This document shows positions 5,813 through 5,970 of a stretch of DNA of 64,000 bases, piece after piece. Both the position numbers and the translations under genes were made by a program. Positions within the stretch are counted from its first letter, which is position 1. Every line of letters starts with the position of its first letter. This stretch comes from Escherichia coli. Its GTDB lineage: Bacteria > Pseudomonadota > Gammaproteobacteria > Enterobacterales > Enterobacteriaceae. The notes under the pieces are model-generated. The model was not told the DNA's origin, made no database searches, and was given only the letters and a program-made list of their open reading frames with translations. Where the stretch lies: assembly GCF_003334305.1 (NCBI RefSeq), contig NZ_QOWS01000005.1; one strand, written 5' to 3'.

Positions 5813-5889
5813 TGGTGCGTCCGAGTGGACTCGAACCACCGACCCCCACCATGTCAAGGTGGTGCTCTAACCAACTGAGCTACGGACGC
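5813..5889 (-). tRNA. valW: tRNA-Val (anticodon GAC)
   Basis: Reverse complement reads GCGTCCGTAGCTCAGTTGGTTAGAGCACCACCTTGACATGGTGGGGGTCGGTGGTTCGAGTCCACTCGGACGCACCA; cloverleaf with anticodon loop TTGACAT and encoded CCA. Confidence 0.95.
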
Positions 5890-5893
5890 AGGA

Positions 5894-5970
5894 TGGTGCG
5901 TTCAATTGGACTCGAACCAACGACCCCCACCATGTCAAGGTGGTGCTCTAACCAACTGAGCTATGAACGC
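5894..5970 (-). tRNA. valV: tRNA-Val (anticodon GAC)
   Basis: Reverse complement reads GCGTTCATAGCTCAGTTGGTTAGAGCACCACCTTGACATGGTGGGGGTCGTTGGTTCGAGTCCAATTGAACGCACCA; 4-nt spacer to valW. Confidence 0.95.

What the first reader, a model, noticed from the sequence alone, without database searches (positions are those of the whole stretch)
5813..5970. Tandem near-identical tRNA-Val(GAC) genes separated by 4 nt
Two 77-nt tRNA-Val genes with encoded CCA differ mainly in the acceptor and T-stem bases and are separated by only 4 nt, so they are almost certainly processed from one transcript. They are divergent from ydhQ. This is a known arrangement.
Basis: seen in the sequence. Interest (0 to 1): 0.1.

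Follow-up and report, generated by a model that had tools for sequence, protein, structure and literature searches.

The report
E. coli valine tRNA pair valV–valW

Summary
Confirmed and already known. ARAGORN and Rfam both call two 77-nt tRNA-Val(GAC) genes at exactly 5813-5889 and 5894-5970. Both lie on the minus strand, both encode CCA, and 4 nt (UCCU) separate them. Their six differences are three compensatory base-pair swaps, two in the acceptor stem and one in the T stem. The 596 nt compared here (tRNAs, spacer, promoter, flanks) differ from E. coli K-12 valV (b1665) and valW (b1666) at one intergenic base. The pair is present in 5425 of 5426 complete E. coli genomes. Published experiments on this same sequence show one sigma-70 promoter, a dicistronic precursor, separation by RNase P rather than RNase E, and 3' trimming by PNPase and RNase II. 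I located that promoter (TTGCCA-17-TAATAT, 6025-5997) and found it nearly invariant across Enterobacterales. The valV-type/valW-type order is kept exactly in 44 of 117 sampled tandem pairs. "Divergent from ydhQ" is correct, but it is an Escherichia-specific state; the widespread upstream neighbour is mdtK. Side observations: a leader hairpin with modest covariation support, a questionable Rfam HPnc0260 hit antisense to valW, and one strain where an IS3-family element replaced valV. Interest is low.

The parts
6020..6025 (-). -35 hexamer TTGCCA of the valV valW promoter
   Evidence: Consensus scan. It matches the 5/6 -35 reported by Mohanty & Kushner 2007. CTTGCC is nearly invariant across the Enterobacterales loci inspected.
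5997..6002 (-). -10 hexamer TAATAT, followed by the G+C-rich discriminator TCGTCCCC (5996-5989)
   Evidence: Consensus scan with a 17-nt spacer. It matches the 4/6 -10 in the paper. TAATAT-TCGTCCCCG is conserved from E. coli to Proteus, Morganella and Xenorhabdus, while the -35/-10 spacer sequence varies.
5971..5990 (-). 5' leader of the primary transcript. The start sites are the C residues at about 5989/5990. The leader contains a 6-bp hairpin, CGUUGU-CACCU-ACAACG (5989-5973), that ends 2 nt before the RNase P site.
   Evidence: Start sites were mapped by primer extension at two C residues, given as 18 and 19 nt upstream of mature valV. By my count the nearest C residues are at -19 and -20, a one-base counting difference. 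The hairpin appears in the predicted folds. In a structure-naive alignment of 35 leaders, 89% of cells pair, against 26-60% when the partner columns are slid.
5894..5970 (-). valV, tRNA-Val(GAC), 77 nt, encoded CCA. It carries U5-A68, A7-U66 and U50-A64 in canonical numbering.
   Evidence: ARAGORN; Rfam tRNA 70.1 bits; identical to K-12 b1665.
5890..5893 (-). 4-nt intergenic spacer UCCU. RNase P cuts at its 3' side, which is the 5' end of valW.
   Evidence: Sequence. The UCCU spacer and RNase P dependence are described in PMC2190699 and PMC4176162. The spacer is unpaired in the predicted fold of the dicistronic RNA.
5813..5889 (-). valW, tRNA-Val(GAC), 77 nt, encoded CCA. It carries C5-G68, G7-C66 and G50-C64.
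   Evidence: ARAGORN; Rfam tRNA 69.6 bits; identical to K-12 b1666.
5770..5816 (-). 3' trailer. An 8-bp A/U-rich hairpin, ACCAGAUU-UUCUU-AAUCUGGU (5816-5796), uses the tRNA's ACCA end. A C/U-rich, G-poor tract follows it (5795-5770).
   Evidence: Terminator-like hit, though the number of hits was no higher than in shuffled sequence. Fold. In 40-nt windows the tract has 11-13 C against 3-4 G. The literature proposes Rho-dependent termination and trimming by PNPase/RNase II.

Best explanation
This is the valV valW operon of Escherichia coli: two tandem genes for the minor valine isoacceptors (tRNA-Val2A and tRNA-Val2B, anticodon GAC). By standard wobble decoding they read GUC and GUU.

Shown by published experiments on this sequence: a single sigma-70 promoter (TTGCCA-17-TAATAT) starts transcription about 19 nt upstream of valV. 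RNA polymerase makes one dicistronic precursor. RNase P, not RNase E, cuts at the mature 5' end of each tRNA and so separates them at the 4-nt UCCU spacer. The 3' trailer is removed by PNPase and RNase II.

Proposed in those papers but not shown: termination is Rho-dependent.

Inferred from general E. coli tRNA maturation (own knowledge): the few extra 3' nucleotides on valV are nibbled back to the encoded CCA by RNase T/PH-type exonucleases. Also inferred, from sequence conservation only: the G+C-rich discriminator marks the promoter as growth-rate/stringently controlled.

The two copies differ only by three compensatory stem pairs, and both are functional.
For: Both genes are called by ARAGORN and by Rfam tRNA at about 70 bits. 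The cloverleaf is supported by covariation among 27 distinct relatives: 99.8% of cells pair and 11 of 21 pairs show double changes, against 29-51% paired when the partners are slid.

Over the 596 nt compared with K-12, the window has one mismatch, in the intergenic region at window 6110, outside the operon. K-12 annotates these genes as valV b1665 and valW b1666.

The operon is present in 5426 of 5426 complete E. coli genomes, and intact in 5425.

The promoter I found has the same hexamer match counts (5/6 and 4/6) as the one reported with primer-extension start sites. It is nearly invariant across Enterobacterales.

The dicistronic precursors VW1 and VW2 accumulate with a half-life above 32 min in rnpA49 but not in rne-1 mutants. 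PNPase and RNase II remove the trailer. This was reconfirmed in 2014 and 2020.

Two mature species, tRNA-Val2A and tRNA-Val2B, are listed in the literature, both carrying acp3U47. A T is present at that position in both genes. That valV and valW encode these two species is my own recollection; no retrieved paper states the gene-to-species link.
Against: Nothing contradicts the identification; two small points remain open. First, the 2007 paper says the region downstream of valW has no predicted secondary structure. An 8-bp hairpin overlapping the CCA end is in fact predicted and is kept in E. albertii through a G-U change. The mode of termination is therefore not fully settled. Second, the processing experiments were done in K-12 derivatives, not in the strain this window comes from, although the sequence of the whole unit is the same.
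Confidence: 0.97

Rival explanations
1. The two tRNAs are separated by the canonical pathway: RNase E cuts just after the CCA of valV, and RNase P acts only afterwards.
For: This is the textbook model for many E. coli tRNA operons (introduction of PMC2190699). RNase E does cut the valV leader when RNase P is inactive.
Against: The spacer UCCU is 4 nt and is not an A/U-rich RNase E site. No precursor accumulates in rne-1 mutants, whereas rnpA49 stabilises the dicistronic RNA to a half-life above 32 min. Confirmed again.
Confidence: 0.02
2. valW has its own promoter and is an independent transcription unit.
For: In strain CEC96047 an IS3-family element has replaced the promoter and all of valV except its last 5 nt, yet valW is retained intact. 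So valW may be expressed from another start there, possibly reading out of the IS.
Against: Four nucleotides leave no room for a promoter between the genes. The consensus scan finds no promoter-like site inside valV. Primer extension found only the two starts upstream of valV, and the dicistronic RNA is observed directly.
Confidence: 0.02
3. The two copies are not merely redundant. The conserved valV-type and valW-type stems would give them different properties, such as EF-Tu affinity through T-stem pair 50:64, processing rate, stability, or sensitivity to tRNA-targeting toxins. Selection would then keep both.
For: In 44 of 117 sampled tandem pairs from different species, the upstream copy is identical to E. 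coli valV and the downstream copy to valW, in that order. The same six positions differ in 45 pairs. Tandem copies in Serratia, Rahnella, Proteus and Xenorhabdus are instead identical to each other, so homogenisation is possible in principle. Pair 50:64 is one of three T-stem pairs reported to tune EF-Tu binding (own knowledge, not checked here).
Against: Each difference is a compensated stem pair, which is hard to revert one base at a time. The two types can therefore persist neutrally under ordinary purifying selection. The papers I read treat the two species together: one sums their concentrations and one assays their aminoacylation as a single Val2 class. No phenotype distinguishing them is known to me.
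Confidence: 0.1

Closest known systems
valV valW operon of E. coli K-12 MG1655 (b1665, b1666; tRNA-Val2A/2B)
   Same: The tRNA genes, UCCU spacer, promoter, leader and trailer are identical. Over 596 nt the only mismatch is one intergenic base outside the operon. The neighbours are also the same: ydhQ divergent upstream, ydhR downstream.
   Different: Nothing in the unit itself. The surrounding 64 kb is about 99% identical to K-12, so this is another E. coli strain.
leuQ leuP leuV and valU valX valY lysV operons of E. coli (other tRNA operons separated by RNase P)
   Same: They are polycistronic tRNA transcripts with short, non-A/U-rich spacers, such as CUUC, CC and CUC. RNase P separates them independently of RNase E.
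   Different: The valU and lysT operons end in Rho-independent terminators that RNase P itself removes, and they are processed 3' to 5'. For valV valW the papers propose Rho-dependent termination, exonucleolytic trailer removal, and possibly co-transcriptional cleavage.
Tandem tRNA-Val(GAC) clusters downstream of mdtK (norM) in other Enterobacterales and in Aeromonas
   Same: The anticodon arm is the same by search design. The position is also the same: in all 99 loci that hold an mdtK homologue, the cluster lies downstream of mdtK in the same orientation. Within the Enterobacterales the promoter core is also shared; the Aeromonas locus inspected does not align there.
   Different: Copy number is 2 to 5. 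Spacers range from 2 to 30 nt, and 30 was the upper limit of the search. In Serratia, Rahnella, Proteus and Xenorhabdus the copies are identical to each other and sit 20-30 nt apart. ydhQ and ydhR flank the cluster only in Escherichia.

Membership tests
tRNA (Rfam RF00005) | Cloverleaf with a 7-bp acceptor stem, D, anticodon and T arms, and a score above the family threshold | tested here: met
   70.1 and 69.6 bits against a gathering score of 29. ARAGORN calls both genes. 99.8% of stem cells pair across 27 distinct relatives, with 11 covarying pairs.
tRNA-Val(GAC) (E. coli Val2 isoacceptors) | Anticodon GAC at positions 34-36 | tested here: met
   ARAGORN reports anticodon gac at position 35 of the gene sequence in both genes; this is canonical position 34, because of an extra D-loop base. 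TTGACAT anticodon loop.
tRNA-Val(GAC) (E. coli Val2 isoacceptors) | Valine identity elements A35, C36 and discriminator A73 (own knowledge of ValRS recognition) | tested here: met
   Both genes have G-A-C in the anticodon and an A immediately before the CCA. Aminoacylation itself cannot be tested here; charging of Val2 (valV, valW) in vivo is reported in PMC4176162.
tRNA-Val(GAC) (E. coli Val2 isoacceptors) | Sequence identity to the annotated valV and valW genes | tested here: met
   100% identity over both genes and the spacer to NC_000913.3 positions 1746435-1746592.
RNase P-dependent polycistronic tRNA operon (Mohanty & Kushner class) | Single promoter upstream of the first tRNA and no room for an internal promoter | tested here: met
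   TTGCCA-17-TAATAT lies at 6025-5997, and no other promoter-like site was found on that strand. The spacer is 4 nt. The promoter core is conserved across Enterobacterales.
RNase P-dependent polycistronic tRNA operon (Mohanty & Kushner class) | Short spacer that lacks an A/U-rich RNase E site | tested here: met
   The spacer is UCCU, as in the published description.
RNase P-dependent polycistronic tRNA operon (Mohanty & Kushner class) | The dicistronic precursor accumulates when RNase P, but not RNase E, is inactivated | not testable with these tools
   Shown experimentally for the same sequence in K-12 derivatives. It cannot be repeated in silico.
RNase P-dependent polycistronic tRNA operon (Mohanty & Kushner class) | Rho-dependent termination with no terminator hairpin | tested here: inconclusive
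   The trailer is C-rich and G-poor, with 11-13 C against 3-4 G per 40 nt, which fits a Rho loading site. However, an 8-bp hairpin followed by CUUCUCCUUUUU is predicted right at the CCA end. The scan found no more such sites than in shuffled sequence.
Rfam RF02194 HPnc0260 (antisense RNA of Helicobacter pylori) | Score above the gathering threshold | tested here: met
   112.1 bits against 59 at 5689-5851 on the plus strand.
Rfam RF02194 HPnc0260 (antisense RNA of Helicobacter pylori) | A transcript made from that strand, in a genomic context like the H. pylori one (divergent from ureA, NikR-regulated) | tested here: not met
   No promoter-like site lies on the plus strand in 5300-6700. The context here is ydhR/valW, not ureA. 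About 37 bits come from the reverse complement of the tRNA's 3' half alone. I therefore do not file this locus under the family.

The most novel reading that the evidence does not exclude
The two gene copies may be functionally specialised rather than redundant. The exact valV-type-then-valW-type order is kept unchanged in many Enterobacteriaceae genera. The acceptor pairs 5:68 and 7:66 and the T-stem pair 50:64 could set different EF-Tu affinities, processing kinetics or toxin sensitivities. A conserved 5'-terminal leader hairpin might shield the precursor from RNase E so that RNase P has to do the separation.
Probability: 0.1. Interest if true: 0.35.

Novelty: already known. Interest (0 to 1): 0.05.

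Why it matters
It matters little as a discovery. The cross-species data add modest context. They show how old the valV/valW divergence is, that the promoter core is nearly invariant, that a leader hairpin may be conserved, and that mdtK rather than ydhQ is the widespread upstream neighbour.

Tried and rejected
1. RNAalifold on 35 aligned leaders predicted no consensus structure. The hairpin became measurable only when I named it explicitly, so the evidence for it is moderate and rests largely on one covarying pair.

2. The terminator scan gave 2 hits against 1.7 expected from shuffles. The hairpin at the CCA end therefore cannot be called a terminator on that basis.

3. I considered whether the Rfam HPnc0260 hit signals a real antisense RNA and rejected it as unsupported. 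No plus-strand promoter-like site was found. The conserved end of the model is the reverse complement of a tRNA 3' half. Scores fall with distance from E. coli. The H. pylori RNA lies in an unrelated context.

4. Single-sequence MFE folds misdraw the T arm. I relied on the covariance model and on covariation instead.

5. The pairing between the trailer and the ydhR ribosome-binding site could not be tested for covariation. Only three close Escherichia sequences have this junction, and none shows a double change.

6. Searches were technical errors (a range one base too long; a file not yet available) and gave no data.

Full report
**Observation.** ARAGORN finds exactly two tRNA genes in the 64-kb window. 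Both are tRNA-Val with anticodon GAC, at 5813-5889 and 5894-5970 on the minus strand. The Rfam tRNA covariance model scores them 69.6 and 70.1 bits against a gathering score of 29, with E about 1e-14. Tandem Repeats Finder independently reports an 81-nt period with two copies at 5813-5971. Each gene is 77 nt and ends in an encoded CCA. The 4 nt between them read TCCT on the coding strand.

The two genes differ at six positions: 5, 7, 51, 65, 67 and 69 of the 77-nt sequence. These make three fully compensated base-pair swaps. In canonical numbering they are acceptor pairs 5:68 (U-A against C-G) and 7:66 (A-U against G-C), and T-stem pair 50:64 (U-A against G-C). The only thing omitted was the strand.

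**Identity.** An 801-nt query around the genes matches all 5426 complete E. coli genomes. Many hits are 100% identical, and the annotation reads ydhQ, tRNA-Val (x2) and ydhR. Aligned to K-12 MG1655, 596 nt spanning the start of ydhQ, the intergenic region, both tRNAs and the start of ydhR show a single mismatch, at window 6110. K-12 annotates the genes as valV (b1665) and valW (b1666), tRNA-Val(GAC).

The whole window is collinear with the reverse complement of K-12 positions 1,688,118-1,752,404 at about 99% identity. Local gene order in the window is:
- ydhS, 3670-5274, minus strand
- ydhR, 5400-5705, minus strand
- valW, then valV, minus strand
- ydhQ, 6278-7534, plus strand
- mdtK, 7575-8948, minus strand

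**How it works.** The mechanism has been worked out experimentally on this same sequence. Mohanty & Kushner 2007 (PMC2190699) made the following observations:
- Primer extension mapped two transcription starts at C residues, given as 18 and 19 nt upstream of mature valV, preceded by a -35 (5/6) and a -10 (4/6).
- The spacer is UCCU and lacks an RNase E site.
- Dicistronic precursors (VW1, VW2) accumulate with half-lives above 32 min in rnpA49 mutants but not in rne-1 mutants.
- Removal of the 3' trailer needs PNPase and RNase II.

The authors proposed Rho-dependent termination. They also stated that ydhR is not co-transcribed, but the data for that were not shown. Agrawal et al. 2014 and Mohanty et al. 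2020 confirm that RNase P is required.

My consensus scan finds one promoter-like site on that strand: TTGCCA-17-TAATAT at 6025-5997. Its hexamer match counts equal those in the paper. It places the start at the C residues at window 5989/5990. By my count these are at -19 and -20, a one-base difference in counting convention.

ViennaRNA folds the 201-nt precursor into four elements: a leader hairpin, two tRNA-like domains and a trailer hairpin. The UCCU spacer stays unpaired. In this prediction the valW RNase P site is accessible, although the MFE structure has low ensemble frequency.

The literature lists two mature species, tRNA-Val2A and tRNA-Val2B, both carrying acp3U47 (PMC6895100). Both genes have T at that position. 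That valV and valW encode these two species is my own recollection; the retrieved papers do not state which gene gives which species.

**Conservation within E. coli.** A 241-nt query covering the promoter and both tRNAs is covered at 80% or more in 5425 of 5426 genomes, at 99% identity or better in 5417. The single exception is strain CEC96047 (NZ_AP026104.1). There an IS3-family element has replaced the promoter and all of valV except its last 5 nt, leaving CACCA-TCCT-valW.

**Conservation across species.** I made a pattern scan of one genome per species for two Val(GAC) genes 0 to 30 nt apart. The loci come from Enterobacterales, Aeromonas and a few other Gammaproteobacteria. The main results are:
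- **Spacer length.** Spacers range from 2 to 30 nt, and 30 was the upper limit of the search. The commonest length is 4 nt, in 30 of 121 matches.
- **Copy order.** In 44 of 117 complete pairs the upstream copy is identical to E. coli valV and the downstream copy to valW. In 45 pairs the same six positions differ. The valV/valW split therefore predates the diversification of the Enterobacteriaceae.
- **Identical copies elsewhere.** In Serratia, Rahnella, Proteus and Xenorhabdus the copies are identical to each other and lie 20-30 nt apart.
- **Copy number.** Clusters hold two copies in 75 loci, three in 33 and four or five in 10.
- **Cloverleaf covariation.** Among the 27 distinct tRNA sequences, 99.8% of stem cells pair and 11 of 21 pairs show double changes. 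When the partners are slid, 29-51% pair. The anticodon arm was fixed by the search pattern, so only the acceptor and T stems are informative.
- **Promoter.** The core CTTGCC...TAATAT-TCGTCCCCG is nearly invariant from E. coli to Proteus and Morganella, while the sequence between the hexamers varies. This is independent support for the mapped promoter. The G+C-rich discriminator is typical of stringently controlled stable-RNA promoters (own knowledge).

**Genomic neighbourhood.** In all 99 loci that contain an mdtK homologue, the tRNA cluster lies downstream of mdtK in the same orientation, usually about 150-200 nt away. Only E. coli and E. albertii have ydhQ inserted between them, and only Escherichia has ydhR directly downstream. 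"Divergent from ydhQ" is therefore true here, but it is a derived arrangement.

**Open or minor points.**

1. The 2007 paper says no secondary structure is predicted downstream of valW. An 8-bp A/U-rich hairpin that uses the tRNA's ACCA end (5816-5796) is in fact predicted. It is kept in E. albertii through a G-U change. A C-rich, G-poor tract follows it, which would also suit Rho. The scan found no more terminator-like sites than in shuffled sequence, so the termination mode remains unsettled.

2. The primary transcript begins with a 6-bp hairpin (5989-5973) that ends 2 nt before the RNase P site. Most of the 59 distinct leaders from other species fold into a hairpin at the same place, with arms such as GCUGUC/GACAGC, GUUGCC/GGCAAC and GCCGUC/GACGGC. 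In a structure-naive MAFFT alignment of 35 of them, 89% of cells pair against 26-60% when slid, and pair 16:30 is U-A in 21 sequences and C-G in 9. RNAalifold alone predicted nothing. The RNase E side-cleavages reported at -10, -8 and -6 fall in the loop and 3' arm of this hairpin. I found no mention of the hairpin in the papers I read.

3. Rfam family HPnc0260 (RF02194) hits 5689-5851 on the plus strand at 112 bits. This is antisense to the 3' half of valW, the valW-ydhR spacer and the ydhR start codon. It also hits the equivalent place in these loci:

| Species | Bits |
|---|---|
| E. albertii | 103.5 |
| Proteus penneri | 82 |
| Enterobacter cloacae | 68 |
| Citrobacter werkmanii | 66 |
| Salmonella enterica subsp. 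arizonae | 64 |

It does not hit in Serratia, Aeromonas or Pantoea. The 3' end of the model is the reverse complement of a tRNA T arm and acceptor end. The original RNA lies upstream of ureA in H. pylori. No plus-strand promoter-like site is found here. I regard the hit as an artefact of how the family was built, not as evidence for an antisense RNA.

**Verdict.** Interest is low. The most novel reading not excluded is that the valV-type and valW-type tRNAs are functionally specialised and that the leader hairpin shapes processing. I put this at about 10%, and it would be only moderately interesting if true.

Noticed in passing
window 5689-5851 (+): Rfam RF02194 HPnc0260 (an H. pylori antisense RNA) matches at 112 bits against a gathering score of 59. 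The match is antisense to the 3' half of valW, the valW-ydhR spacer and the ydhR start. Equivalent hits occur next to the last tRNA-Val(GAC) in E. albertii, Proteus, Enterobacter, Citrobacter and Salmonella, with scores that fall with distance from E. coli. It is probably a family-building artefact driven by the reverse complement of the tRNA.
   Followed up: partly
window 5973-5989 (-): The valV valW primary transcript starts with a 6-bp hairpin (CGUUGU-CACCU-ACAACG) that ends 2 nt before the RNase P site. Other Enterobacterales keep a hairpin at the same place with compensatory arm changes. 89% of cells pair in a structure-naive alignment, against 26-60% when slid. It is not mentioned in the processing papers I read.
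   Followed up: partly
window 5997-6025 (-) and loci L003-L122: The promoter core CTTGCC-N17-TAATAT-TCGTCCCCG is almost invariant from E. coli to Proteus, Morganella and Xenorhabdus, while the spacer between the hexamers varies freely.
   Followed up: yes
window 6278-7534 (ydhQ) and 7575-8948 (mdtK); loci L003-L122: In all 99 related loci that hold an mdtK homologue, the tRNA-Val(GAC) cluster lies downstream of mdtK in the same orientation, usually 150-200 nt away. ydhQ sits between them only in E. coli and E. albertii, so it looks like a lineage-specific insertion. Two other loci (L054, L036) have a different insert of about 1.6 kb.
   Followed up: partly
L002 (E. coli CEC96047, NZ_AP026104.1) 247-1586: This is the only one of 5426 complete E. 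coli genomes without an intact pair. An IS3-family element has replaced the promoter and all of valV except its last 5 nt, leaving valW alone and without its native promoter.
   Followed up: yes
window 5796-5816 (-): An 8-bp hairpin (ACCAGAUU/AAUCUGGU) that uses the ACCA end of valW is followed by CUUCUCCUUUUU. The 2007 paper states that no secondary structure is predicted downstream of valW. The hairpin is kept in E. albertii through a G-U change. The scan found no more such sites than in shuffled sequence.
   Followed up: partly
window 5706-5795 (-): The C/U-rich trailer after valW (UUUCUUCUCUG) is predicted to pair with the ydhR Shine-Dalgarno region (CAGAAGGAGAA). The fold has a z-score of -3.67. 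The pairing is kept in three Escherichia sequences but shows no compensatory change, so it is untested. It could mask ydhR translation on any read-through transcript.
   Followed up: partly
loci L003-L122: Copy number of tandem tRNA-Val(GAC) genes varies from 2 to 5 (75, 33 and 10 loci with 2, 3 and 4-5 copies). In Serratia, Rahnella, Proteus and Xenorhabdus the copies are identical to each other with 20-30 nt spacers. Enterobacteriaceae keep two distinct types with short spacers.
   Followed up: yes
window 43297-43719: A 96-nt tandem repeat with 4.4 copies at 92% match lies inside rsxC. From the overlap of the BLAST alignments, the window has one more unit than K-12 MG1655.
   Followed up: partly
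window 14562-14952 (+): Rfam STnc550 (an enterobacterial sRNA) matches at 396 bits. The match covers the small ORF cydH (ynhF), read here at 14861-14950, so this 'sRNA' includes the mRNA of a small protein.
   Followed up: partly
window 60719-60747: Relative to K-12 the window lacks roughly 150-180 nt in the ydgA-uidC intergenic region. The two BLAST alignments overlap by 29 nt at the junction. The missing sequence was not examined further.
   Followed up: no
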